Source: Candidatus Dormiibacterota bacterium (lineage in GTDB: Bacteria; Chloroflexota; Dormibacteria; Aeolococcales; Bog-877). Taken from it: a stretch of DNA of 64,000 nucleotides. Below are positions 4,008-26,282 of this stretch, piece after piece. The notes below the pieces were generated by a model, which saw only the letters and a program-made list of their open reading frames with translations, had not been told where the DNA came from and made no database searches. Positions within the stretch are counted from its first letter, which is position 1; every line of letters starts with the position of its first letter. The DNA lies in NCBI GenBank assembly GCA_963701235.1, contig OY969577.1, positions 1,573,363 through 1,637,362 of the forward strand, given 5' to 3'. The position numbers were made by a program, and so were the translations under genes.

Positions 4008-4142
4008 CCAGGCGCCTTGAGCCAAGGTCAGATCTCGATGACCATCCATACCTACAGCCACGTAATCCCCGAGCCAATTGGCGCCGCGGCTCAGGCGGTC
4101 GACTCAGCCTTGGCCTGCGACAGGCCGCGGACGAATTGGTAG
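4008..4142 (+). pseudogene. 3' remnant of a tyrosine recombinase (integrase) gene, about the last 40 codons
   Basis: Translates to LSQGQISMTIHTYSHVIPEPIGAAAQAVDSALA*. This is closely similar, at both amino-acid and nucleotide level, to the C-terminus of the integrase at 9092-9705 (LGHSQISMTLNTYSHVIPELMGGAAKAIDSAFARG*). No upstream catalytic domain is present. Confidence 0.5.
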
Positions 4143-8599: not shown

Positions 8600-8797
8600 C
8601 TGCCGACTTGAGACGTTAGCGGTAGTCACACCGCGAGATCCAGGACGCGAACTGTCGACCAGACGTGAGGAGGAAGTCAGCAAGGCGGTACGGGTAGGGC
8701 TCGTGGTGGTCTTTGAGATAGGTGGAGCCAGGGCGGGCTCCGCCGACAGAGCCTGACAAGGTCGGATGCACTAACTGATTGGCGCTCGTCTGCCGGT

Positions 8798-9705
8798 TTG
8801 GAGCCACCACGAGCGGCGGCGGTGGCGGGACCGTGGAGGCATCGGGGAGCTGCACCGGGTGGGCGTGCCGGCGTCGGGACGAACTTGCCGGTGTCAGGTG
8901 GCGGGGTTGGTCTGCCATGTCAGCTGTTCGCCAGCGGCCTATCGCCTCGACGCGTTCAAAACATCCGGGCAGTTCTCAGGGTCGCCCTTGCCGGCGCGGT
9001 CGCCCGGCGCCAGTTGCCCCTCAACGTCGCGGAGGCCGGGATGGTCGCCACTCCAAGATCGAGCGCCACAAGGTTCGTCCCATGACCTCACCCGAGGCTC
9101 AGGGGATCCTCGACGCCTTCGAGAGTCACCGACTCGGGGGGTTGGTCACCGTCATCCTCGGCCTCGGTTTGCGGCTTGTCGAGGCGTTAGGACTCCAGTG
9201 GTCCGAGGTGAACTTCGAGCAGGACCAGGTGCGGGTCGTCGCGACCCTACAGCGATTCAAGGGTGAGGACGGGATCCGGCGCTGGGAACTGCGACCGCCC
9301 AAGTCCGAGGAGTCAAACCGGACTCTGCCCCTCCCCGCTTCCGTGGCCGCAGCCCTTCAGGGCGAGCGCTCCCGGCAACGGCTCGCCCAACTGGCAGCGG
9401 GGCCAGCCTGGCAAGAGACGGGCTTCGTCTTCACCAGCCGCACCGGGGAGCCTTGGTCAGAGAACGGCGCGCTACACGCCTTCCAGAACGCCCTCGCCGC
9501 GGCTGACCTTCCCCGGATGCGACTGCACGACCTCCGCCACGGGACAGCGACCCTGCTACTGGCTCCGGGAGTGCCGGCGCGGGTGGTCATGGAGATACTT
9601 GGCCACAGCCAGATCTCAATGACGCTCAACACCTACAGCCACGTCATCCCCGAGCTCATGGGTGGCGCAGCTAAGGCGATCGACTCAGCCTTCGCGCGCG
9701 GGTGA
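8798..9705 (+). pseudogene. tyrosine-type recombinase/integrase, frameshifted and N-terminally truncated
   Basis: Complete catalytic domain at 9092-9705, with R...HDLRH...Y in LRLVEALGLQWSEV ... MRLHDLRHGTATLL ... LNTYSHV. The core-binding-domain homology (VQNIRAVLRVALAGAVARRQLPLNVAEA) sits in a different frame (8798-9085), so the gene is frameshifted. It is immediately 5' of tRNA-Gln. Confidence 0.7.
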
Positions 9706-9778
9706 GTTCGAGGAAATGGGTGTCAATCCACTCCTGGGCCTGCCAGCCGAGGCACGCCATTTGAGATCAAAATAGGGG

Positions 9779-9850
9779 CTGGGGCGGAAGGATTCGAACC
9801 TTCGGATGGGGGATCCAAAGTCCCCTGCCTTACCACTTGGCGACGCCCCA
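9779..9850 (-). tRNA. tRNA-Gln (anticodon TTG)
   Basis: 72-nt cloverleaf with acceptor TGGGGCG/CGCCCCA, anticodon loop CTTTGGA, T-loop TTCGAAT, and discriminator G. CCA is not encoded. The 3' end faces the integrase pseudogene 74 nt away. Confidence 0.85.
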
Positions 9851-9924
9851 AGGCGCGATCAGATTAGCGGAGGCATGCACCTGCGTCGCACCGGCCACCT
9901 CGTGCTTGCGTGGTCTCCTCCGGG

Positions 9925-13463: not shown

Positions 13464-14345
13464 CTAAGGCTTTGTCCGCCGGACCGGGACGTCAACCGCC
13501 CGATGCACCGGATTGAAAATCGACCGGTTACCTGCTCCCTGGGCTGCCGCTTCGGCGACCGGATCCTGACCCCCCGGGCCTCTGAGCACATAAGCGATCG
13601 CCACCGCGATCACCATCCCCAGCACCGGGCCGATCGCATAGACCCAGTAATTGGTGAAGTTGAGAATCACCAGTTCGGGACCGAATGAGCGAGCGGGGTT
13701 CATCGAGGCGCCGCTGATCGGGCTGGCCCAGAGGCCGGCCAGGGCGATGTACCCAGCCACTGCCAGGGCGGATAGAGCCCCGACGTTCTGAGCGCCAGAC
13801 GCGGTTCCCAGAATCGTGGTCACCAGGCCCAGAGTGAGCAGCGCCTCGATCATCATGGCCTCGCCGCCGGAGATCCCGGCTCCCGGCTCGGTAGCACCGA
13901 GCATGCCTGCCTGCCCGAGCACCACGGATAGGAACACGCAGGCCAGGGTGGCTCCCAGGAGCTGCGCGATCACGTATGCAGGCACCCGGCGCCAGGGGAA
14001 GTCCCTGCGCATGGCAAAGGCCAGGCTCACGACTGGGTTGAGGTGCGCTCCAGAGACCTTGCCCATCGAAAGGATGACCGCCATCACCATCAGGGCGGGC
14101 GCCACCACCTCCGCCGTCCGCCCCACGGATCCGTGGCTGACGGCGGATACCACGCCCGCTCCGGCAGCGACGGTAACCAGCATGAAGGTCCCCAAGACCT
14201 CGGCGAAGATCCGGCGCCACTCCTGGGTGGGGTCCAGAAAGACAGCGATCCAAGCTGGCTCGAGGTGCTCAAGAGCCGCCGCCCCGGCATCACTAGCGGG
14301 CTGGGCCGGCCCTTCGTGACCGGCCGGGGGGTCAGGATTGGCCAT
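13464..14345 (-). CDS. MIP-family channel (aquaporin / glycerol facilitator)
   Basis: Two NPA boxes (HLNPVVS and NPARSFGP) and six TM helices. Confidence 0.8.
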   Translation of the reverse strand: MANPDPPAGHEGPAQPASDAGAAALEHLEPAWIAVFLDPTQEWRRIFAEVLGTFMLVTVAAGAGVVSAVSHGSVGRTAEVVAPALMVMAVILSMGKVSGAHLNPVVSLAFAMRRDFPWRRVPAYVIAQLLGATLACVFLSVVLGQAGMLGATEPGAGISGGEAMMIEALLTLGLVTTILGTASGAQNVGALSALAVAGYIALAGLWASPISGASMNPARSFGPELVILNFTNYWVYAIGPVLGMVIAVAIAYVLRGPGGQDPVAEAAAQGAGNRSIFNPVHRAVDVPVRRTKP

Positions 14346-14474
14346 CGAGGCGCAAGTAAACGCGATCTGGGCCTCCCCGCGCTTGCTAAAGGCTGGGACC
14401 CCATGTCGTGAATCGATGGCGCCGGTTCGACTGTCCCGAACCTTCAGCTGCCTGTGTGGAACGGGTCCCTGCGG

Positions 14475-15350
14475 TTAGCTGGGCTGGCGCACCGCCCAGG
14501 CGCCGGTTCGGGTTGCGGTCAGCTGGAAGTACGCGCGCCGCACCGCGACCTGGGCGACGGCCGCGGGGAACGCGGTATCGGCTTCGAAGTCAATCGGCCG
14601 GCGCGAGGCTTGAAACCCGGTCCGGGCGAGGTCCGCCAGATGCTGCAGCTCAGCCTGCTGGTTCCGCCCGAAGGTGGAGTCGACCACGGCCCCGTGGCCG
14701 GGGACGAGCTTCTCCGGACCCAGCTCCAGGAGAACGCCCAACGTGTCTGGCCAATCGAGGGGGAAGGAGTCGTCGAACGAAGGCGGTTCACCCTCTTCGA
14801 GAAGATCTCCGGCGAAGAGCACCCGGGCGTCACCAACCCAGACCGCCCCGTCGTTGTCGGTGTGGCCTCGACCGGGGTGGATCAGGGTTACGACTCGCTC
14901 ACCCAGGTCGAGCTCGGCCCGGTCGTCGAAGAGACATCCGGCCTGGACGATCGGGCTGGCTGCGACCTGTTGCGCAAGTCCAGGATCGGTCTCGCGGAGC
15001 CGAGCGACCACGGCGCGTTGCTCGACCGGCCCCTCCCAGCGCAGATGCTCGGCGCAGAGCCGCTGACTCCAGATCGCTTCGGCCTCCAGCGCTCCGTTGC
15101 CGAAGCAGTGGTCGAAGTGGTTGTGGGTGTTGACGGCCTCAAGGGGACGATCCGCCGCCACCTGCTTGGCCAAGTGCACCAGCTCCTGTCCCTCGGTCAG
15201 GGAAGCACCGGTGTCCACCAGCAGAGCCCGCTCCCGGCCCAGTACCAGGCCGACGTTCGCCCGAAACGGATCGAGGGGCATCGTGAAGAGCCCCTCAGCC
15301 AACTCCTGCCAGCCACGGGTCGGGGCCATGGGCACATCTTGCGCTGGCAT
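14475..15350 (-). CDS. MBL-fold metallo-hydrolase
   Basis: HxHxDH motif (THNHFDHCFG) and downstream His/Asp ligands (HPGRGHTDND, GHG). Confidence 0.7.
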   Translation of the reverse strand: MPAQDVPMAPTRGWQELAEGLFTMPLDPFRANVGLVLGRERALLVDTGASLTEGQELVHLAKQVAADRPLEAVNTHNHFDHCFGNGALEAEAIWSQRLCAEHLRWEGPVEQRAVVARLRETDPGLAQQVAASPIVQAGCLFDDRAELDLGERVVTLIHPGRGHTDNDGAVWVGDARVLFAGDLLEEGEPPSFDDSFPLDWPDTLGVLLELGPEKLVPGHGAVVDSTFGRNQQAELQHLADLARTGFQASRRPIDFEADTAFPAAVAQVAVRRAYFQLTATRTGAWAVRQPS

Positions 15351-17257: not shown

Positions 17258-17692
17258 CTACCGGCGCTCGACCGCGGCCTTGAGTCCCTCCAGCACCGGA
17301 CCCCAGTTGTTTTCAGCCATCTTGTCGGCCTCTTCCTGGCTGGCGTTGTTGTCTTGCTTGACGGTGAGAGTGGTCGTGCCCTCCTCCCCGGCCAGCTCAT
17401 AAGTCACCGTGTGGTAATTGTCGGGCGTGTCCTCGGTGCCAGCCGTCGGGCTCCAGTGCGTCACCCTAAGCAGCTGGCGTGGTTTGACCTCGAGCACGCT
17501 GCCCTTGTCCTCGTAGGTACTGCCCTGCCACTCGCCTTTCCAGGTGATCGGGCTTCCGACCTGCCAGTCGGTCTCCATGTTCGTTCCGTACATGTATTGC
17601 CTCACCATCTCGGGGTCCGTCAGGGCCTGCCACACTGCATCGGCCGAGGCATTGATGGTGATCGACTTCTCAGCCACAAACGAATCTTTCAC
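17258..17692 (-). CDS. SRPBCC-family protein (Aha1/activator of Hsp90 ATPase homolog-like domain)
   Basis: 144 aa with the characteristic SRPBCC/AHSA1 pattern (INASADAVWQALTDPEMVRQY...GS..T..WKGEW). Confidence 0.6.
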   Translation of the reverse strand: MKDSFVAEKSITINASADAVWQALTDPEMVRQYMYGTNMETDWQVGSPITWKGEWQGSTYEDKGSVLEVKPRQLLRVTHWSPTAGTEDTPDNYHTVTYELAGEEGTTTLTVKQDNNASQEEADKMAENNWGPVLEGLKAAVERR

Positions 17693-17771: not shown

Positions 17772-20700
17772 TTAGGCGGATGCGCTCTCCCTGGCGCTGG
17801 GCGTGCCGAGGCGCTCAATCCAGGGGTGCGCCTGCAGGCTCTGAAAGGTCCCCAGGGCCAGATCGCGCAGCGGCCCTGCCTTGTCCTCACGACCGCGAGC
17901 CAGCAGCCACTCAGCGTGCTCGGTCTGGGTCACTGCGAGGTCGAAGGGCGCGCCGAGATCCCGGAACCCAGCTTCGGCCGCCACAAACCCCGGTTCCACC
18001 AAATCATCCTGGCCGGCGGCCGTGGACAACCTGGCACCGAGCCTAGCCACCTGGGCCCGGAGCCAGGGCGTGACCTGCCCTGAATGGGCCTGCCTGACCG
18101 TGTCCAGTAACTCATGGGCACGGCCCAGGTCGCCCTGATCCAGCGCAGCCTCGACGGCCTTGATCAACAGCCTCTTGACGTGGCTCTGGGTGAGCCCGAT
18201 TCCGAGCTCGGCTCGGGTCGCCAGGAACTCCTCGGCGGCCGCCAGGGCTTCGGCCGGGCTGCCCTCCGCACGACGGACCTCGGCCATCGCCGCCGCGAAC
18301 TCCCCCTTAGTCTCCCAGTCCTCGGAACTGCGCGCGGACTTCATTGACTCGATCGTCGCCTTGGCCTTGGCGAGGTCCCCCCGGTGGACATCGATCGTGG
18401 TAAGGGCCAGGAGTGCTGCTGTCCAGGTCTCCAAAGACTCAAATTCCTCTGCGTTGCGCACCGTCTCGGCCTGCACCTCGGCTTCCTCCCAGCGACCAAG
18501 GTTGATCAGTGAGCCGAGCGAGCCGGTGAGTACGGTCAACTCCCAGAAGCGATCGCCCACCCGGTGGGCCAACTCCAAACGCTGCTCGTCCATGGCGACC
18601 GATTCAGCCCAGCGATCCTGGGCGATCAGGGCCACCGCCAGGTTGTTGTAGGCCCGTTGCGCCGCGGCCGTGAGGCCGTCCTCGAGAGCCACCTCCAAGG
18701 CTCGCCGGAGCAGAACACCTGCCTCGTCCAGCCGGTCACTGTGCATTAGGCTGACCGCCTTGCTGCTGAGTGCCTGGGAGTAGACCTCTCGGAGCTCGAG
18801 ATGCTCGGCGAGTTCCAGGCCCTCCTCGAGCACGGGATTCGCCTCGTCGTAACGTCCGGCCAGGGCGAGGATGCGGCCCAGTTGGGCCGCCACCAGGGCC
18901 AGATCGGGGTCGGCCCGGCCACCGGCAAGCCCGGAGTAGGCCTTCTGCATGCGCTCGATGGCCTGCTCCACGTGACCGCGGACCCATTCCGCCCCGGCCA
19001 AGCGAGCCTGGACCCTCGCCGCCGCGCGAGTGTTGTCCGCGGCTTCGAACAGCCGGCTGGCCTCCTCATATCGGCTGGCCGCCTCATCCGGGCGTCCCCG
19101 CAGCTCCGCCATCTCGCCCGCTCGCTCGGTGAGGGCCGCCTGCTCCAGTCCCGATTCGCTCAGCTCGGCGGCTCTAACGAAGGCGAGCTCCGCCTCTTCC
19201 GCTGCGGCCAGCGCAGCCGCCCGCTCCGCCGCCCGCACCAGCATCTCGCGGGCCTTGTTCTTGATCTCCCGGGCGCCAGGTTCGTCCGGGTCCAGGCGCC
19301 AGGCTTCCAGGTAGTGCGAGGCCAGGACTTCGACTATCTCCTCGGCGTCCCTGCCCCTGGTCCGCTCGAGATAGGTGGCGACTGCGAGGTGCTTCGACCG
19401 ACGTTCCCGCTTGGAGAGGGTCTCGTAGGCGACGGTGCGCACCAGGTCCTGCAGGAACCCGTATTGACCCCGCTCTGGGGAGCGGGGGTCGGCTTGGACC
19501 GAGAGCACCTCCTTGGCCACCAGGGTGCTGAGGATCGGCCCGAGCTCGTTCTCACTGTGGCCCGAGAGCGCTGCCAGGCCCTGAAGCGTGAAGGTCTTGC
19601 CCAGGACCGAGGCATCTTGGGCCAGCTGTCGCTCCTCTGGGGACATTCCGTCCAGACGTGCCGCGATCAGTGCCTGGAGGGTCTCCGGCACCTCGAGGGT
19701 GTCGATCTGTCCGGTGGGGCGGTAGGCCGAGCCCTCCTCGACTAGAAGTCCCCGGTCCAGCAGCATCCTCACCGTCTCCACCGCGTAGAGGGGGATCCCC
19801 TCCGCCCGCCCCCGGATGCGCTCGGCCAGCGGCTTGGGCAGCCCTGGGACCAAGCCGGTGAGGAGTTTGTCCATGGCCGCCGGCGTGAGCGGTTCGAGGT
19901 GGACCGAGGTGGCGTTCCGGGTCGACGCCGCCAGAGCGGTGGCGGCCACGTCGGGGCGGACCAGACTCACCACGAACAGGGGATACGCCCTCGACCACTC
20001 CATTAGATAGGCGATGAACTCCAGCAGCGAGGGGTCGGCCCACTGCATGTCCTCGAAGACCATCAGCACCGGGCTCTGCTCGGCTAGGCGCTCGAAGAAG
20101 AGGCGCCAGGCGGCAAAGAGGTCCTGCTTGTCGGGTGCGGTCCGCTCCTCCAAGCCGATCAGGTGAGCTAGACGGGGAAAGACGAAACGACGGTCCTCTA
20201 AGTCGGGGACATATTCATCGACCGCGGCCTGGAGCTTGGCCGCCGCCGACTCGCGGTTCTCTGCCTCCAGGATGCCCGCCCGGCCTCGCACCATCTCCGC
20301 GAGTGCGAAGTAGGTCACGCCCTGCCCGTAGGCCAGACAGCGGCCCTGGTGCCAGAAGTAGCCCGACTGCAGGCCGTCCATGTATTTGAAGAACTCCCAG
20401 GCCAGCCGGGACTTGCCAATCCCGGCGATCCCGGTGACCTGCAGCAGGTGGGCCCGCTTGTCCTCGGTGCAGGCGTGGAAGACCTCCTTGACCAGCCTCA
20501 GCTCACGATCACGACCCACGAACGGCGCCTCCAAGCGCTCGGACTTGAGCAGGCCGCCGCGGCCGGCCACCACCCGGAGCGCGCGATAGAGCGGGACCGG
20601 TTCGGCCTTGCCCTTCAACTCGTGGGTGCCGACATCCTGGTAGGCGACGGCCGCCTCGGTGACCCGCTTGGTGCTCTCGCCTACCAGCACCGTCCCGGGC

Positions 20701-21326
20701 TGACTCTGGGTCTGGATCCGGGAAGCGGTGTTGACCAGGTCACCCGCCACCATCCCCTGGCCTCTGGCTCCAAGATTGACTGCGGCCGTTCCGGTCAGCA
20801 CCCCGGCCCGGGCTGCCAGCCCAGGCGCCTTGACCTCCTCGCCCAGGGCGGCGACCGCTTCCACCAGGTCCAGCGCCGCCCGGACTGCCCGCTCGGCGTC
20901 ATCCTCCTGGGCCACCGGGGCTCCCCAGACCGCCATCACCGCGTCCCCGATGAATTTCTCAACTGTGCCGCCGTAGCGCTCGACCAACTCCCGGCAGACG
21001 TCGAAGTAACGGCTGAGCAGCTCTCGCACCTCTTCGGGGTCCCTCGACTCCGAGAGGGTGGTGAATCCCACCAAGTCCGCGAACAAGACCGACACCACTC
21101 GCAATTCGACCGTGTTGACGGCATCTGGCGGCGGCGAAGAGTAGGGCGCCGCCGCAGCTGACCCGCGGCCGGTGGCGCCTAGCGCTGCGCCACACTCGCG
21201 GCAAAACTTCTCCGTCGCGCCGTTGGCAAATCCGCAGGCGGCACATACCTGAGCTACCGCCGCGCCGCATTCGCCACAGAACTTGCTGCCCGGGATCGTC
21301 TCCGCCCTGCAGTTCGAGCAGACCAC
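17772..21326 (-). CDS. multidomain protein: tandem zinc ribbons, class III adenylate/guanylate cyclase domain, STAND/AAA ATPase, TPR repeats
   Basis: N-terminus CxxC...CxxC ×2. Cyclase catalytic motifs (VLFADLVGFT, EKFIGDAVMAVWGAP). P-loop (GIAGIGKS). A long C-terminal array of TPR-like helical repeats. No C-terminal LuxR HTH recognised. Confidence 0.8.
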   Translation of the reverse strand: MVCSNCRAETIPGSKFCGECGAAVAQVCAACGFANGATEKFCRECGAALGATGRGSAAAAPYSSPPPDAVNTVELRVVSVLFADLVGFTTLSESRDPEEVRELLSRYFDVCRELVERYGGTVEKFIGDAVMAVWGAPVAQEDDAERAVRAALDLVEAVAALGEEVKAPGLAARAGVLTGTAAVNLGARGQGMVAGDLVNTASRIQTQSQPGTVLVGESTKRVTEAAVAYQDVGTHELKGKAEPVPLYRALRVVAGRGGLLKSERLEAPFVGRDRELRLVKEVFHACTEDKRAHLLQVTGIAGIGKSRLAWEFFKYMDGLQSGYFWHQGRCLAYGQGVTYFALAEMVRGRAGILEAENRESAAAKLQAAVDEYVPDLEDRRFVFPRLAHLIGLEERTAPDKQDLFAAWRLFFERLAEQSPVLMVFEDMQWADPSLLEFIAYLMEWSRAYPLFVVSLVRPDVAATALAASTRNATSVHLEPLTPAAMDKLLTGLVPGLPKPLAERIRGRAEGIPLYAVETVRMLLDRGLLVEEGSAYRPTGQIDTLEVPETLQALIAARLDGMSPEERQLAQDASVLGKTFTLQGLAALSGHSENELGPILSTLVAKEVLSVQADPRSPERGQYGFLQDLVRTVAYETLSKRERRSKHLAVATYLERTRGRDAEEIVEVLASHYLEAWRLDPDEPGAREIKNKAREMLVRAAERAAALAAAEEAELAFVRAAELSESGLEQAALTERAGEMAELRGRPDEAASRYEEASRLFEAADNTRAAARVQARLAGAEWVRGHVEQAIERMQKAYSGLAGGRADPDLALVAAQLGRILALAGRYDEANPVLEEGLELAEHLELREVYSQALSSKAVSLMHSDRLDEAGVLLRRALEVALEDGLTAAAQRAYNNLAVALIAQDRWAESVAMDEQRLELAHRVGDRFWELTVLTGSLGSLINLGRWEEAEVQAETVRNAEEFESLETWTAALLALTTIDVHRGDLAKAKATIESMKSARSSEDWETKGEFAAAMAEVRRAEGSPAEALAAAEEFLATRAELGIGLTQSHVKRLLIKAVEAALDQGDLGRAHELLDTVRQAHSGQVTPWLRAQVARLGARLSTAAGQDDLVEPGFVAAEAGFRDLGAPFDLAVTQTEHAEWLLARGREDKAGPLRDLALGTFQSLQAHPWIERLGTPSARESASA

Positions 21327-21488
21327 CCACGCCTCCTTCAGAGCCCGACGCGCTCCGAATGGTAACGATCGAGGCCCGGGATCACGACACGGGTCCCGAT
21401 CAACGCGGCGACGCTAGCGGATCTTCTCATTGCCCAGCAAGTTGGCTGGGCGGTCCGAGGAACGACCCACTCACGCTTCGGACCAGGG

Positions 21489-21719
21489 TTGAGAGAGGAT
21501 CTGCAAATGGTCTGGGATTTGGGTGCCGCGCCCCCAATCGTGCCCTTGCTGCTGCTGACCGGCGCCGCGGGCTACTTCATTCCCACCTTCATAGCCATGG
21601 ACCGCCACCACCGGCGCGCCGCCGTGTTCGCGGTCAACCTGCTCTTGGGGTGGACCTTGATCGGTTGGTCAGTGGCCCTGGACATGGCACGCTCAGCGCC
21701 GCCGTCCCCGCCGACGTGA
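21489..21719 (+). CDS. superinfection immunity (Imm) family small membrane protein
   Basis: Matches the family signature YFIPTFIA...R.H......AVNLLLGWTLIGWSVAL. Start may be the internal Met (MVWDLG). Confidence 0.55.
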   Translation: MREDLQMVWDLGAAPPIVPLLLLTGAAGYFIPTFIAMDRHHRRAAVFAVNLLLGWTLIGWSVALDMARSAPPSPPT

Positions 21720-21781: not shown

Positions 21782-23011
21782 CTAGGCCGGCTTCACCGCC
21801 CGAACGATGGCGCTGAACATGCCGTCCGCCACCGGGTGACTCTCGATCACCTCGACGTCGGAGAAGCCCTGAGCTAGCAGAGCTTGGTGGTACTCGGACC
21901 GCGTCAACGCCCCCGCGATGCACCCGACGTAGCTGCCACGCTCCGCCCGCTCCTCGACCGAGAGCCGGTCCTCGGCGACCACGTCGGTTATCGCGAGCCG
22001 GCCGCCCGGGCGGAGCACTCGGAATGCCTCGCGCAAGACGGCGCTCTTGTCCGGCGATAGGTTGACCACGCAGTTGGAAAGAATCACGTCCACCGCCTCG
22101 GCCGGAAGCGGTACTGACTCGATCTCTCCCTTCAAAAACTCGACGTTGCTGGCGCCAGCCTCGCGTGCATTGGCTGTGGCCAGCTCCAGCATCTCGTCGG
22201 TCATGTCCAGACCGTAGACCTTGCCGCTCGCTCCCACCCGTCGGGCGCTGAGGAGCACGTCGACGCCAGCCCCGGATCCGAGGTGAAGGACGGTCTCGCC
22301 GTCGTGGAGATCCGCCACAGCCGTGGGGTTCCCGCATCCCAGGCTGGCCAGCAGCGCTCCCGCAGGCAAGCCCTCGCGGTCATCGTCGGCATAACTTGAC
22401 GCTCCGAACCCGTCCTCGACAATCGCCGATGCGCAGCAGGAGGCTTCGCGGCAAGAGGCGGTCGCCGCTCCCCCAGCTGCACGGGCTGCGGCTGCGTATT
22501 TGACACGGACTTGTTCTCGTAGAGCGGCCTTGGTGTCGGCCCCCGGCTGGGCGTTCGGCACAAGCTCCGCGAGAAGACCAAGGACTCGCCGATCAATTTC
22601 GTCTCTGATCCTCCGGATCTCCTCGAGAGACCTGCCTTCGGGATCCGCCACCTGCCAGTCCAGGTAGCGTTTGCCGGGGAAGAACGGGCAGGCGTCGCCG
22701 CATCCCATAGTCACCACCACGTCCGAGGCGCGGACCGCCCCGGCGGTCAGTAGCTTGGGAGACTCGCCGCCGAGATCGAGGCCGACCTCGGCCATGGCTC
22801 GTACTACTTCCGGGTTCACCTCGCTGGCAGGCTCAGAACCGGCCGATACGACGTCGAGATTGCCACCCGCGCGGGCGGCCAACAGCGCCGCCGCCATCTG
22901 AGAACGGCCAGCGTTGTGTACGCAGGCGAAGAGCACGCGCGGCACTGATCCCAACGTCGCCACCTCGGCTACCGAAGGCCAGCCATCACTGCGTAGGCTA
23001 CACCTATCCAT
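21782..23011 (-). CDS. fusion: arsenate reductase (LMW-PTP type ArsC) plus arsenite S-adenosylmethionine methyltransferase (ArsM)
   Basis: N-terminal CVHNAGRSQMA P-loop, CGDACP and DP motifs of thioredoxin-coupled ArsC. C-terminal SAM-MTase motif (VLHLGSGAGVD...VYGLDMTDEML) with ArsM-type conserved cysteines (CC, LGCGNP). Confidence 0.65.
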   Translation of the reverse strand: MDRCSLRSDGWPSVAEVATLGSVPRVLFACVHNAGRSQMAAALLAARAGGNLDVVSAGSEPASEVNPEVVRAMAEVGLDLGGESPKLLTAGAVRASDVVVTMGCGDACPFFPGKRYLDWQVADPEGRSLEEIRRIRDEIDRRVLGLLAELVPNAQPGADTKAALREQVRVKYAAAARAAGGAATASCREASCCASAIVEDGFGASSYADDDREGLPAGALLASLGCGNPTAVADLHDGETVLHLGSGAGVDVLLSARRVGASGKVYGLDMTDEMLELATANAREAGASNVEFLKGEIESVPLPAEAVDVILSNCVVNLSPDKSAVLREAFRVLRPGGRLAITDVVAEDRLSVEERAERGSYVGCIAGALTRSEYHQALLAQGFSDVEVIESHPVADGMFSAIVRAVKPA

Positions 23012-24172: not shown

Positions 24173-26282
24173 CTAGGTGCCCGCGGCGGCGAGGGGTCGC
24201 AGAGAAGCGGCAACAATGCCGTCCACATCCACCGGGCGTCCATACCAGTAGCCCTGGGCGAAGGCTACGCCGCCAAGCGAATTTAGGGTAGTCGCCTCGG
24301 CGCGGGTTTCCACGCCCTCGGCGATCAACTCGCTGCCGGTAACCCGCGCGAAGTGTGCTAACGCGACGATCATGGCCTGTCGAGCGGGATCCGAGTTCAC
24401 CCTACGGATGAGACCGATATCCACCTTGATGAAGTCAGGCTGGAGTTCCACGATGTGCTGGAAATTCGCGGTGCCGGCCCCCGCGTCGTCGACCGCGACT
24501 CGGACCGCCCCGAGTTGCTGGAGCGCGATTCGGATCGCCGCATAGTCGGTTATCACGTCGTGCTCAGTGATTTCCAGGACGAGGGGGCGATCGGACTGGT
24601 TCAGGATGGTCCGCACCCTGTCAGCCTGACTCAGGATTAGGGGTGAGGCGTTGACATTCAGCCAGAGGCCCGGGGGCAGGCCTCGGCCCACTCGGATCGC
24701 CAGCTCCAATGTGGCAAATTCAAGCTCCGCGCCCAGGCCCACGCTCCAAGCGGTGGAGAATTGGGTGTCGGGGGACTCCATCGCTGAACCGGGTCAGCGC
24801 CTCGTAGCCCACAACCTGGTGGGTCCTTACGTCGACAATGGGTTGGAAGACCGGCCGAAACGCCGTTGTGTCGATGATCGTCTGAATTCTGGCGTGGTGC
24901 TCAGCAGCGAGCTGTTCCGCATTCAGGTCGAGGGCCAGGAGGGTGCTGGCGGCAGAGCCAAACTCAGCGATTGCGGACAGGTTCTCGATAGTCGCCTCGG
25001 CCTTGGCGGGATTGACAGAGCCCACCAGAAGCACACCCAGGGTGTGCTGTCCATAGCAGATTGGTGCGTACGCCACGCTCTGCACATTTGCTTGTGTGAG
25101 CGTCTCTCCATAGGACCCGTCCTCAACTCGCTTCCTCCAGCGCTCCGCCCACGGCCCCTCGGCAGCACGCTCGATGAGGTAAGAGGCCCGCACGGCAGGC
25201 AGGTTGTCCCCGGCCGACACCGGGAAGCTCTCTCGAGCTGTGACGGCGAGCACGGTCGCGCCCCCAAGGGAAGTGAACACGATCAGCACAGAAAAGTCCG
25301 CCCCGTCCAAGCCGCAGAGTTCCCCGCAAATCGCCTTGGCCGTCTCCTCGGTAGTCTCTCCGGGCCGCAGCCGAGCGATCGCGCCCGCCACCTCCGCCCG
25401 GTCTCGGAGTTTTTGTTCCAGCTCCCAGTGGGCGGCCCGATCCTGGGTGACGTCCTGGCCCAGGATGACTGCACCGAGCGTGGCACCGGCGCGGTCCCGA
25501 AGCAAGATGGCGCTAACCACAACCGCTCGCCGAGTGCCTGACTGGGTCACGACTTCGGAGGCCACCGGGTGCTCTAAATCGCTGACCAGGAATCCTTCCG
25601 GCAGCGGCTGGCCGGGGGCAAGCCTGGTGCCAACTGGCAACAGATCGCAGACGGGACGCCCGATCAGATCGGCGTCAGCCCGGCCGCTCAGGGCGCACAG
25701 CGCCGGGTTTGCGTACGAGATGCATCCCTCTGTGTCGACGGTGGCCACGAATAGGTCGAAGCGCGTCAGCGTCTGACTGAACTGACCTTTAACCAACTCG
25801 CGTTGGCTGGCGCTGCGAAGGACCCCAAGAATCCTTCCGTCCTCAAGGCGGCGCTGCTCGATCTCAACGGCAATTGTTGTTCCGGTCTTGTGGCGGTAGC
25901 GGATCTGGGAGATCAACGAGGGATGGGCAGTGGATGCGGCCATGCGCTGGCGCTGGGCCTCCCGATCCTCGGGGGCAACCAGCATAGACAGAGGGGCACC
26001 AATCAGCTCGGAACGCGCGTAGCCCGTCAGCAACGAGGCACTGACGTTGACGTCAACGATCCGATGGGTCCGTGAGTCCGCAAGAAAGATCGAGTCTTTG
26101 GTTCGATCATCGGGGCTGCCCGCGCGGGTTGCTCCGTTCTCGGAGAGTCTGCGGGCCGACCTGTGGGCTGTCGCCAGGGTTCGCGGAGCCTTGCCGCGAG
26201 GCGCCCTACCCGGGTGGATCCGATCGGACGAAGCCGTGCCGCCCGACTTTTGGGGGCCCGGCAGCCGGCTTGAGCTGCCCAT
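24173..26282 (-). pseudogene. PAS/GAF sensor protein with C-terminal EAL (c-di-GMP phosphodiesterase) domain, interrupted by a frameshift
   Basis: ORF 24720-26282 has PAS/GAF regions and the start of an EAL domain (FQPIVDVRTHQVVGYEALTRF). The EAL domain continues in another frame in ORF 24173-24781 (PDTQFSTAWSVGLGAELE...EITEHD...DDAGAG...GYWYGRP). The frames switch near 24,750-24,790. Confidence 0.55.

What the first reader, a model, noticed from the sequence alone, without database searches (positions are those of the whole stretch)
17772..21719. 1184-aa zinc-ribbon / class-III cyclase / STAND-ATPase / TPR protein adjacent to a superinfection-immunity (Imm) family gene
The large protein combines a nucleotide-cyclase effector-like domain with a STAND P-loop NTPase and a long TPR sensor array. 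Mycobacterial cyclase-ATPase-LuxR regulators share this architecture, but here there is no C-terminal HTH. STAND-TPR proteins with N-terminal effector domains also serve as antiviral sensors (Avs-like logic). The divergently oriented neighbour, 160 bp away, is a small membrane protein with a clean superinfection-immunity family signature, which is a phage-derived function. Whether this pair is a signalling regulator or a defence-type sensor/effector cannot be decided from sequence alone.
Basis: partly seen in the sequence, partly recalled or inferred. Interest (0 to 1): 0.5.

Follow-up and report, generated by a model that had tools for sequence, protein, structure and literature searches.

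The report
Cyclase-STAND-TPR signalling protein, unrelated Imm neighbour
The large gene is a real and probably active zinc-ribbon / adenylyl-cyclase / MalT-type STAND ATPase / TPR protein from a very large, multi-copy family of bacterial signalling proteins, and the small "superinfection immunity" gene beside it is a chance neighbour, so this is an ordinary signalling gene and not a phage-defence pair.

Summary
Both ORFs exist as described. The large one is 17772..21326 (-), 1184 aa. The small one is a 70-76 aa PF14373 membrane protein at 21489/21507..21719 (+).

The large protein has a double zinc ribbon, a class III cyclase with all catalytic residues invariant, a MalT-type STAND NTPase with intact Walker A and B, and about 500 aa of TPR repeats. 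There is no DNA-binding domain. The lack of an HTH is normal for the family, not a truncation: of the 102 closest 50%-cluster representatives with room for an N-terminal domain, 101 carry the cyclase, and none examined has a LuxR HTH.

The family is huge (71,599 representatives at E<=1e-3). It is multi-copy in Dormibacterota and Actinomycetota MAGs and sits among housekeeping genes.

The Imm link fails in both directions. Only 1 of 80 homolog loci has Imm within 6 kb, and there a hydrolase gene lies between the two. A syntenic relative keeps Imm but lacks the cyclase gene.

No Avs model matched. No defence genes recur nearby, and no phage record carries the full architecture. Four close paralogs sit next to cNMP-binding proteins.

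Best reading: a ligand-gated, oligomerisation-activated adenylyl cyclase used in physiological signalling. Low interest.

The parts
17772..21326 (-). Whole gene: 1184-aa zinc-ribbon / class III cyclase / MalT-type STAND NTPase / TPR protein. The stop codon is at 17772-17774.
   Evidence: ORF. Pfam domains. More than 8000 homologs, the best 98% identical in a Candidatus Dormibacterota MAG. AlphaFold model with mean pLDDT 83.7.
21177..21326 (-). Residues 1-50: double zinc ribbon with four CxxC pairs. A disordered linker follows at residues 51-71.
   Evidence: PF12773 DZR, E 1.6e-8. 67 of 83 aligned homologs have the double CxxC..CxxC pattern. The GTG start has a conserved GGAGG SD. Residues 51-71 have pLDDT below 50.
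20571..21110 (-). Residues 73-252: class III nucleotide cyclase catalytic domain, predicted adenylyl cyclase.
19959..20525 (-). Residues 268-456: nucleotide-binding domain of the STAND NOD (AAA_16). Walker A is G299-S306 and Walker B is F424-E425-D426.
19407..19958 (-). Residues about 457-640: helical domain and winged-helix domain of the NOD. The wing hairpin is at residues 528-537.
   Evidence: Secondary structure of the model. The best Foldseek PDB hit is the STAND-TPR protein PH0952, 6mfv, at 8.9e-12 over 796 columns.
17802..19406 (-). Residues about 641-1175: arm plus TPR/SUPR-type sensor superhelix. No HTH follows it.
21507..21719 (+). Small two-TM membrane protein of the Imm_superinfect family. 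It is 70 aa from the ATG at 21507; the ORF opens at a TTG at 21489. It is a neighbour and NOT a functional part of the cyclase gene.
   Evidence: PF14373, 58.7 bits. phrog_1039. Orthologs of 57-88 aa in Dormibacterota. It is present without the cyclase gene in the syntenic L081/L082 and in L084.
17258..17692 (-). 144-aa AHSA1/SRPBCC-family gene, 79 bp downstream on the same strand. It is present or absent together with the cyclase gene in the three comparable genomes. Any functional link is unproven.
   Evidence: PF08327, E 5.7e-25. A partial match is present in L001 and none in the other 79 homolog loci. It is absent from L081/L082.

Best explanation
The gene encodes a cytosolic, ligand-gated nucleotide cyclase, most likely an adenylyl cyclase, built on a MalT-type STAND switch. 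It serves physiological second-messenger signalling in a Candidatus Dormibacterota chromosome.

**Proposed mechanism.**
1. At rest, the NOD holds ADP in a closed form. The arm and TPR domains keep it autoinhibited. This is inferred from PH0952 and MalT (PMC6468293).
2. An unknown inducer binds the C-terminal TPR superhelix (inferred).
3. The NOD opens, exchanges ADP for ATP and multimerises. This step is inferred; the invariant Walker A and B motifs are shown.
4. Multimerisation brings the N-terminal class III cyclase domains together. These domains work only as dimers, with the active sites at the dimer interface. cAMP is then made. This step is inferred; the complete, invariant catalytic residue set on one chain, as expected for a homodimeric cyclase, is shown.
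5. The cyclic nucleotide is read by cNMP-binding proteins encoded elsewhere. None is in this window, but four close paralogs have one next door.

**Unassigned part.** The N-terminal double zinc ribbon is a common, conserved add-on with no known role.

**The Imm gene.** The divergent Imm-family gene is an unrelated resident of the chromosomal backbone.
For: **Architecture and fold.**
- Domain architecture.
- Model with mean pLDDT 83.7.
- The Foldseek top hit is the MalT-like STAND PH0952.

**Catalytic competence.** D84, D128, K124, R173, N199 and R203, and the Walker A and B motifs, are invariant in 83 homologs. The cyclase is the most conserved region at 79% mean identity, against 45% for the last TPR block.

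**Family size and make-up.**
- 71,599 representatives at E<=1e-3 and 6,596 at E<=1e-30.
- 101 of the 102 nearest representatives with room for an N-terminal domain carry the cyclase.
- The only extra domains found are a Ser/Thr kinase and BTAD, both signalling or transcription modules.

**Copy number.** There are several copies per MAG.

**Genomic context.**
- The window carries DnaK, ClpB, DnaE and FtsH.
- The immediate neighbours are an ArsC-ArsM fusion, an aquaporin and a metallo-beta-lactamase-fold gene.
- Neighbours of homologs include an ABC transporter, an oxidoreductase and DnaE.

**cNMP readers nearby.** cNMP-binding-domain proteins are adjacent to four paralogs of 74-76% identity: L002, L034, L027 and L012.
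Against: - No member of this HTH-less clade has been characterised in the literature I could search.
- The inducer, the oligomeric state and the nucleotide made are all unknown.
- The second substrate-specifying position is Met192, not the canonical Asp or Thr, so ATP specificity rests on Lys124 alone.
- No cNMP-binding gene lies in the 64-kb window.
- Four cNMP-binding neighbours among 81 loci is only modestly above a rough chance estimate of 1-3, and L002 and L034 represent a single evolutionary event.
- A 2026 preprint predicts that some cyclase-STAND fusions are immune. Those are NACHT or AP-ATPase types.
- An uncharacterised PHROG family, phrog_25255, matches residues 38-737 at E 1.7e-54.
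Confidence: 0.72

Rival explanations
1. Defence-type sensor and effector. The STAND-TPR part would recognise a phage protein, Avs-like. The cyclase would emit a cNMP alarm, Pycsar-like. The Imm-family membrane protein might act as partner or effector.
For: - The N-effector / STAND / TPR layout resembles the logic of Avs proteins.
- PADLOC PycC models hit the cyclase domain at 8e-20.
- phrog_25255 matches residues 38-737 at 1.7e-54.
- A 2026 preprint predicts immune roles for cyclases fused to NACHT or AP-ATPase STANDs.
- The C-terminal TPR block is the most variable region.
- One paralog (L027) sits next to a membrane protein with a cNMP-binding domain.
Against: - No Avs or other STAND defence model matched at E<=0.1.
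- The NTPase is AAA_16/MalT-type, not NACHT or NB-ARC.
- Imm is not co-conserved in either direction. It has no cNMP-binding domain.
- Among the 144 nearest neighbour ORFs of 36 loci, no PADLOC family is hit by more than 3 members. The PycTIR and TIR-effector hits go through the cNMP-binding domain only.
- The window's neighbours give only a generic methyltransferase hit.
- 50,697 phage records and the BFVD viral structure library hold cyclase-only matches.
- The locus is housekeeping chromosome.
Confidence: 0.07
2. A truncated or decayed LAL-type (MalT/LuxR) transcription regulator of the mycobacterial Rv0386 / Rv1358 / Rv2488c kind that has lost its C-terminal HTH.
For: It shares the cyclase-ATPase-TPR order with those Mtb proteins. 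The NOD and sensor are MalT-like.
Against: - All top 120 homologs lack PF00196 in their precomputed Pfam lists, and they end at the same conserved C-terminus (P1168, W1169).
- None of the best 150 NOD-TPR representatives examined has a C-terminal HTH.
- The ORF is intact from a conserved SD-preceded start to a stop shared with homologs.
- The HTH-less form is therefore the family's native architecture.
Confidence: 0.01
3. The same STAND-gated enzyme, but the product is not cAMP (for example cGMP or a pyrimidine cNMP). Alternatively, the cyclase domain acts mainly as a nucleotide-binding regulatory module and not as the output.
For: Met192 replaces the canonical Asp or Thr at the second specificity position and is nearly invariant. 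Rv0386, with a non-canonical Gln-Asn pair, shows both adenylyl and guanylyl cyclase activity according to the preprint read.
Against: Lys124, the adenine-selecting residue, is invariant. So are both metal-binding Asp residues, the transition-state Asn and Arg, and the gamma-phosphate Arg. Such strict conservation argues for catalysis. The closest solved relatives are adenylyl and guanylyl cyclases.
Confidence: 0.15

Closest known systems
MalT and MalT-like STAND ATPases (E. coli MalT; Pyrococcus PH0952, PDB 6mfv)
   Different: The effector is an N-terminal class III cyclase preceded by a zinc ribbon. MalT has a C-terminal LuxR HTH and PH0952 has an N-terminal ArsR-like HTH. Sequence identity is only about 14-15%.
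Mycobacterium tuberculosis Rv0386 / Rv1358 / Rv2488c (class III cyclase - ATPase - TPR - LuxR HTH)
   Same: N-terminal class III cyclase, then a MalT-type P-loop ATPase and TPR region. The function is in cAMP signalling.
   Different: The Mtb proteins end in a LuxR-type HTH, whereas this protein and its whole near family do not. This protein has an N-terminal double zinc ribbon. Its substrate pair is Lys-Met, against the Gln-Asn pair reported for the Mtb cyclase in the preprint read. I could not compare the sequences directly because the Mtb sequences are not held here.
TOMM system kinase/cyclase fusion protein (NCBIfam TIGR03903)
   Same: The cyclase-AAA-TPR part aligns over residues 54-839 with profile positions 262-1045, 248 bits. 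Kinase-cyclase-NOD-TPR relatives exist close to this clade (P0189).
   Different: The score is far below the 706-bit cutoff. There is no N-terminal kinase domain.
Avs (antiviral STAND) proteins and Pycsar cyclases
   Different: No Avs model matched. The structural match to Avs3 is poor. There is no killing effector, no adjacent cNMP-binding effector and no defence-island context.
Phage T4 Imm / PF14373 family (for the small neighbour only)
   Same: A clear family match, with the conserved YF.PT..A..R.H....A..NLLLGWT.IGW core in a protein of about 70 aa with two hydrophobic segments.
   Different: It is encoded in a conserved chromosomal backbone of Dormibacterota MAGs, not in a phage or prophage. 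Function in this setting is unknown.

Membership tests
Class III nucleotide cyclase (PF00211) | Profile match above the curated threshold, and the cyclase fold | tested here: met
Class III nucleotide cyclase (PF00211) | Two metal-binding Asp residues, the transition-state Asn and Arg, and the gamma-phosphate Arg | tested here: met
   D84, D128, N199, R203 and R173 are present and invariant in 83 homologs. Positions were assigned from the alignments to Cya2 and CyaB.
Class III nucleotide cyclase (PF00211) | Canonical adenine-specifying Lys + Asp/Thr pair | tested here: inconclusive
   K124 is invariant. The second position is M192, aligned to the Thr of CyaB.
Class III nucleotide cyclase (PF00211) | Catalysis as a dimer | not testable with these tools
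   All catalytic residues lie on one chain, which fits a homodimer. No assay or multimer model was run.
STAND NTPase, MalT-like clade | P-loop NBD with Walker A and B, followed by HD and WHD (the NOD) | tested here: met
STAND NTPase, MalT-like clade | C-terminal TPR/SUPR sensor like MalT domain III | tested here: met
LAL / MalT-LuxR transcription regulators, including Mtb Rv0386-type cyclase-LAL proteins | C-terminal LuxR/GerE helix-turn-helix | tested here: not met
   No GerE or other HTH at E<=0.1. The model is TPR-like hairpins up to residue 1173. PF00196 is absent from the precomputed Pfam lists of all top 120 homologs. It was not found in the seven outliers scanned among the best 150 representatives.
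Avs (antiviral STAND NTPases) | Match to an Avs family model, or structural similarity to Avs | tested here: not met
   PADLOC returns only PycC hits and one weak TPR hit. Avs3 8dgc ranks 49th with TMq 0.15.
Avs (antiviral STAND NTPases) | Cell-killing N-terminal effector, and association with defence islands | tested here: not met
   The effector is a cyclase. The window's neighbours are non-defence genes. Among 144 neighbour ORFs of 36 homolog loci, no PADLOC family has more than 3 hits, and those hits go through generic domains.
Avs (antiviral STAND NTPases) | Activation by a phage protein | not testable with these tools
   This needs binding or infection experiments.
Pycsar | Cyclase gene paired with an adjacent effector that carries a cNMP-binding domain (TM or TIR type) | tested here: not met
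   AHSA1 and Imm have no cNMP-binding domain. A profile search found no such domain in any ORF of the 64-kb window. In four paralog loci the cNMP-binding neighbours have no detectable TIR domain.
TOMM kinase/cyclase fusion (TIGR03903) | Score above the equivalog cutoff, and an N-terminal kinase | tested here: not met
   248 bits against a cutoff of 706. No Pkinase hit.
Imm_superinfect (PF14373), for the neighbour gene | Profile match above the gathering score | tested here: met
   58.7 bits against 27.9. phrog_1039 at E 3.7e-14.
Imm_superinfect (PF14373), for the neighbour gene | Phage or prophage origin, and exclusion of superinfecting phage | tested here: not met
   The context is a syntenic chromosomal backbone in several MAGs (MIP-MBL-...-Imm-...-ClpB) with no phage genes adjacent. 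The exclusion function itself cannot be tested here.

The most novel reading that the evidence does not exclude
The paralog-rich, HTH-less zinc-ribbon / cyclase / MalT-type STAND / TPR proteins of Dormibacterota and Actinomycetota could be intracellular pattern-recognition receptors. Each paralog's TPR domain would sense a different foreign or danger molecule and answer with a cNMP alarm, read by adjacent or distant cNMP-binding proteins. This would extend the recently predicted immune cyclase-STAND fusions to the MalT clade.
Probability: 0.07. Interest if true: 0.6.

Novelty: new member of a known kind. Interest (0 to 1): 0.17.

Why it matters
It matters little for this locus. The apparent sensor/effector pair with a phage-immunity gene is a coincidence of gene order. 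The large gene belongs to an abundant, already annotated family ([quoted passage not shown]).

The general point still stands. Tens of thousands of bacterial STAND-gated cyclases have no known ligand. No full-length member has a demonstrated activation mechanism, and oligomerisation-driven cyclase dimerisation would be a simple, testable one. Public records also seem to miscall the start of close homologs, which drops the zinc ribbon.

Tried and rejected
1. **Imm as partner.** I tested this from both sides. tblastn and a motif scan of 80 homolog loci found it only in L001. Context look-ups of Imm orthologs showed no cyclase-STAND neighbour. Rejected.

2. **Truncated LuxR regulator.** Rejected on family architecture.

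3. **Conserved partner gene.** I clustered flank ORFs from 81 loci. The most recurrent neighbour occurs in only 14 loci (an ABC transporter), followed by an oxidoreductase (10 loci) and DnaE (9 loci). There is no conserved partner.

4. **Defence context.**
   - PADLOC on the protein, on the window's neighbours and on 144 neighbour ORFs gave only generic or cNMP-binding-domain-mediated hits.
   - The mad2 hit is the ArsM methyltransferase.

5. **Phage origin.** tblastn against 50,697 phage records and Foldseek against BFVD found only cyclase-only or generic repeat and ATPase matches.

6. **cNMP receptor in the window.** None found.

7. **Mobile island.** The integrase and tRNA-Gln at 8.8-9.9 kb lie about 8 kb away, and I found no att repeat that encloses the locus.

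8. **Searches that gave nothing.**
   - No supplementary tables of the 2026 STAND phylogeny paper are held as text.
   - The AFDB fold library was not available.
   - A literature search for Dormibacterota plus adenylate cyclase found no papers.


Full report
**Observation**

The window is high-GC DNA (0.61-0.70). The best protein matches place it in Candidatus Dormibacterota. It is ordinary chromosome: DnaK, ClpB, DnaE and FtsH all lie within the 64 kb.

The reported ORF is 17772..21326 on the minus strand and encodes 1184 aa from a GTG. A GGAGG Shine-Dalgarno sits 5 nt upstream of that GTG. The whole stretch is conserved in the nearest relative, so the N-terminal zinc ribbon is translated.

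Pfam gives these domains:
- DZR at residues 3-46.
- Guanylate_cyc at residues 76-242, E 3.1e-23.
- AAA_16 at residues 268-453, E 4.1e-22.
- TPR_12 / TPR_MalT from about residue 720.
- No HTH of any kind at E<=0.1.

The divergent small ORF opens at a TTG at 21489. The likelier start is the ATG at 21507, which gives 70 aa and matches the homologs. It matches PF14373 Imm_superinfect at 58.7 bits against a cutoff of 27.9, and it matches phrog_1039.

**Anatomy of the large protein**

An AlphaFold model built on 83 homologs has mean pLDDT 83.7. It shows the following parts:
- A small beta-rich zinc ribbon (residues 1-50).
- A disordered linker (51-71).
- An alpha/beta cyclase domain (72-252).
- A P-loop NBD (268-456).
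- A helical and winged-helix region, with the wing at 528-537.
- An uninterrupted run of helical hairpins from about 641 to 1173.

In the 83-sequence alignment the catalytic residues are invariant. They were located by the alignments to Cya2 and CyaB:
- Both metal-binding Asp residues (D84, D128).
- The adenine-selecting Lys (K124).
- The gamma-phosphate Arg (R173).
- The transition-state Asn and Arg (N199, R203).
- Walker A (G299xxGxGKS306) and Walker B (E425-D426).

The second specificity position is a nearly invariant Met192, where CyaB has Thr. ATP is therefore the likely substrate but is not proven.

Mean identity to homologs falls along the chain: cyclase 79%, NBD 77%, HD/WHD 70%, first TPR block 60%, last TPR block 45%. 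The enzyme and the switch are under strong constraint. The distal sensor diversifies, but it stays alignable throughout.

**Is the missing HTH a truncation?**

No. All 120 listed homologs (57-98% identity) have the same domains. None has PF00196. They share the C-terminal end (P1168, W1169 nearly invariant).

I searched the NOD-TPR part alone (residues 255-1184) against 1.84 billion cluster representatives. It found 71,599 proteins at E<=1e-3 and 6,596 at E<=1e-30. Among the best 150:
- 102 have room for an N-terminal domain, and 101 of these carry the cyclase. 62 of them also carry the zinc ribbon.
- The outliers I scanned carry a Ser/Thr kinase in front of the cyclase (P0189) or a BTAD/SARP-type domain in front of it (P0238). 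None has GerE, a nuclease or TIR.

The HTH-less cyclase-STAND-TPR form is a native, very large family. The mycobacterial LuxR-fused forms are more distant cousins.

**Is the Imm gene a partner?**

No.

From the cyclase side, a scan of one genome per species returned 80 loci with relatives of 51-90% identity. tblastn and a family-motif scan found an Imm-family ORF within 6 kb in only one of them. That locus is L001, the 90%-identical ortholog in a sister MAG. Even there a 299-aa alpha/beta-hydrolase gene sits between the two, so the 160-bp divergent arrangement is specific to this genome.

From the Imm side, the orthologs are small Dormibacterota proteins. In L081/L082 (Imm 81% identical) the locus is collinear with the window: MIP, MBL, the homologs of ORFs 15400, 15903 and 16694, then Imm, then ClpB. 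Only about 560 bp separate the ORF-16694 homolog from Imm, and nothing there matches the cyclase gene or the AHSA1 gene. L084 also has no such neighbour.

Imm therefore belongs to the conserved backbone. The AHSA1 + cyclase-STAND pair is an insertion or deletion next to it.

**Defence or signalling?**

Against defence:
- PADLOC hits are PycC models matching the cyclase domain, plus one weak TPR-repeat hit. No Avs or other STAND defence model matched.
- The window's neighbours are an acyl-CoA synthetase, an aquaporin, a metallo-beta-lactamase-fold protein, an SRPBCC protein, an ArsC-ArsM fusion (NF008823 at 295 bits, cutoff 263) and a PAS-GAF-EAL protein. The only PADLOC hit among them is the ArsM methyltransferase matching mad2.
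- Clustering the flanks of 81 loci gave no conserved partner. The most recurrent neighbours are an ABC transporter (14 loci), a pyridine-nucleotide oxidoreductase (10) and DnaE (9).
- In the 144 nearest neighbour ORFs of 36 loci, no PADLOC family is hit by more than three members.
- No phage record and no BFVD model shows the full architecture. One uncharacterised PHROG family (phrog_25255) does resemble residues 38-737.

For signalling:
- The family is multi-copy. Three loci each come from MAGs JBAPNX01 and JBAUWA01, two of them about 6 kb apart on one contig. Pairs of hits share the same listed contig length.
- The added domains in near relatives are a kinase and BTAD.
- The 'PycTIR' and 'TIR effector' hits among the neighbours turned out to be cNMP-binding domains with no TIR.
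- A profile search found cNMP-binding proteins adjacent to four paralogs of 74-76% identity:
  - A stand-alone 139-aa cNMP-binding protein lies right after the stop codon in L002 and L034.
  - An MFS-like membrane protein with a C-terminal cNMP-binding domain lies in L027.
  - A protein with an unknown N-terminus and a cNMP-binding domain lies in L012.

This supports a cyclic nucleotide as the family's output. The enrichment is modest: roughly 1-3 such neighbours would be expected by chance among about 900 flank genes, which is my estimate. No cNMP-binding ORF lies in this window.

A 2026 preprint predicts immune roles for cyclases fused to NACHT or AP-ATPase STANDs. The NTPase here is MalT-type, and its cyclase is the slowest-evolving part of the protein. 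That is the opposite of the accelerated evolution the preprint uses as its criterion.

**Mechanism**

I commit to the following mechanism, with confidence about 0.7 for the overall reading.

What is shown:
- The domain order.
- The complete catalytic and Walker residue sets.
- The MalT-like NOD and sensor folds.

What is inferred from MalT and PH0952 (PMC6468293) and from the obligate-dimer chemistry of class III cyclases (established knowledge):
1. The resting monomer holds ADP and is autoinhibited by arm-NBD and sensor-NBD contacts.
2. An unknown inducer binds the TPR superhelix.
3. The NOD opens, takes up ATP and multimerises.
4. The N-terminal cyclase domains are brought into head-to-tail dimers and make cAMP.
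5. cNMP-binding proteins elsewhere read the signal.

The zinc ribbon has no assigned role. The downstream AHSA1/SRPBCC gene comes and goes with the cyclase gene in the three comparable genomes, but it is absent from the other 79 loci. A link is possible but unsupported.

**Comparison and novelty**

This protein works like MalT with a cyclase as output. It is the HTH-less counterpart of Mtb Rv0386-type proteins. It is not a member of the LAL regulators (no HTH), of the Avs families, of Pycsar (no adjacent cNMP-binding effector) or of TIGR03903 (248 of 706 bits, no kinase).

Close homologs are already in public databases, annotated as adenylate/guanylate cyclase domain-containing proteins. It is a new member of a known kind.

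Interest is low, about 0.17. What remains of value is general: a huge family of STAND-gated cyclases for which I found no characterised ligand or activation mechanism.

Noticed in passing
L002:9627-10046, L034:9696-10214, L027:9922-11634, L012:4685-5680: Four close paralogs (74-76% identical to the window protein) have a cNMP-binding-domain protein as immediate neighbour. L002 and L034 have a stand-alone 139-aa cNMP-binding protein just after the stop codon on the same strand. L027 has an MFS-like membrane protein with a C-terminal cNMP-binding domain. L012 has an unknown N-terminus plus a cNMP-binding domain. These are possible dedicated readers of the cyclase product.
   Followed up: partly
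window 17258-17692 (-): An AHSA1/SRPBCC gene lies 79 bp downstream of the cyclase gene on the same strand. The two are present together in the window, with a partial AHSA1 match in L001, and both are absent from the collinear L081/L082. AHSA1 is not found beside the other 79 homologs.
   Followed up: partly
window 8779-9851 and 4021-4119: A tyrosine-integrase gene (8779..9705, +) abuts tRNA-Gln (9776..9851, -). A 99-nt stretch at the integrase 3' end (9602-9700) is 80% identical to 4021-4119. This suggests an integrated element, or a remnant with a second integrase fragment, to the left of the tRNA.
   Followed up: partly
window 24173-26282 (-): A PAS-PAS-GAF-EAL gene is split into two overlapping ORFs, 24720..26282 and 24173..24781. 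The EAL profile is divided between them (positions 4-39 and 46-236). This is a frameshift, a pseudogene or a sequencing error near 24750.
   Followed up: no
window 13464-15350 and 21782-23011: Arsenic-type genes flank the locus. There is an ArsC(LMWP)-ArsM fusion (arsenite methyltransferase NF008823, 295 bits), an MIP aquaporin and a metallo-beta-lactamase-fold protein. The MBL-MIP pair recurs upstream of another paralog in L007.
   Followed up: partly
P0001 (98% identical to window 17772-21326): The public record of the nearest homolog is 1107 aa and lacks the zinc ribbon. Many 1107-1113-aa homologs look the same. The conserved SD and GTG and the conserved CxxC pattern suggest that some of these are start-codon miscalls.
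   Followed up: partly
P0189, P0238: Near relatives of the NOD-TPR module carry extra N-terminal domains in front of the cyclase. P0189 (1512 aa) has a Ser/Thr protein kinase, like TOMM_kin_cyc. P0238 has a BTAD/SARP-type activator domain.
   Followed up: partly
window 17772-21326 against PHROGs: phrog_25255 (unknown function, profile length 1125) matches residues 38-737 at E 1.7e-54. Yet no GenBank phage record or BFVD model has the cyclase-NOD architecture. The origin of that PHROG, possibly a prophage call, is unexplained.
   Followed up: partly
L018 and L021 (contig JBAUWA010000049.1): Two family members (77% and 74% identical to the query) lie about 6 kb apart on the same contig. This indicates local duplication of the family.
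   Followed up: no
L081:2739-4998: The collinear relative has galK and galT inserted where the window has none. The Imm-to-ClpB interval is 4 kb there against 13 kb in the window. The stretch between MBL and ClpB is a variable region in these genomes.
   Followed up: no
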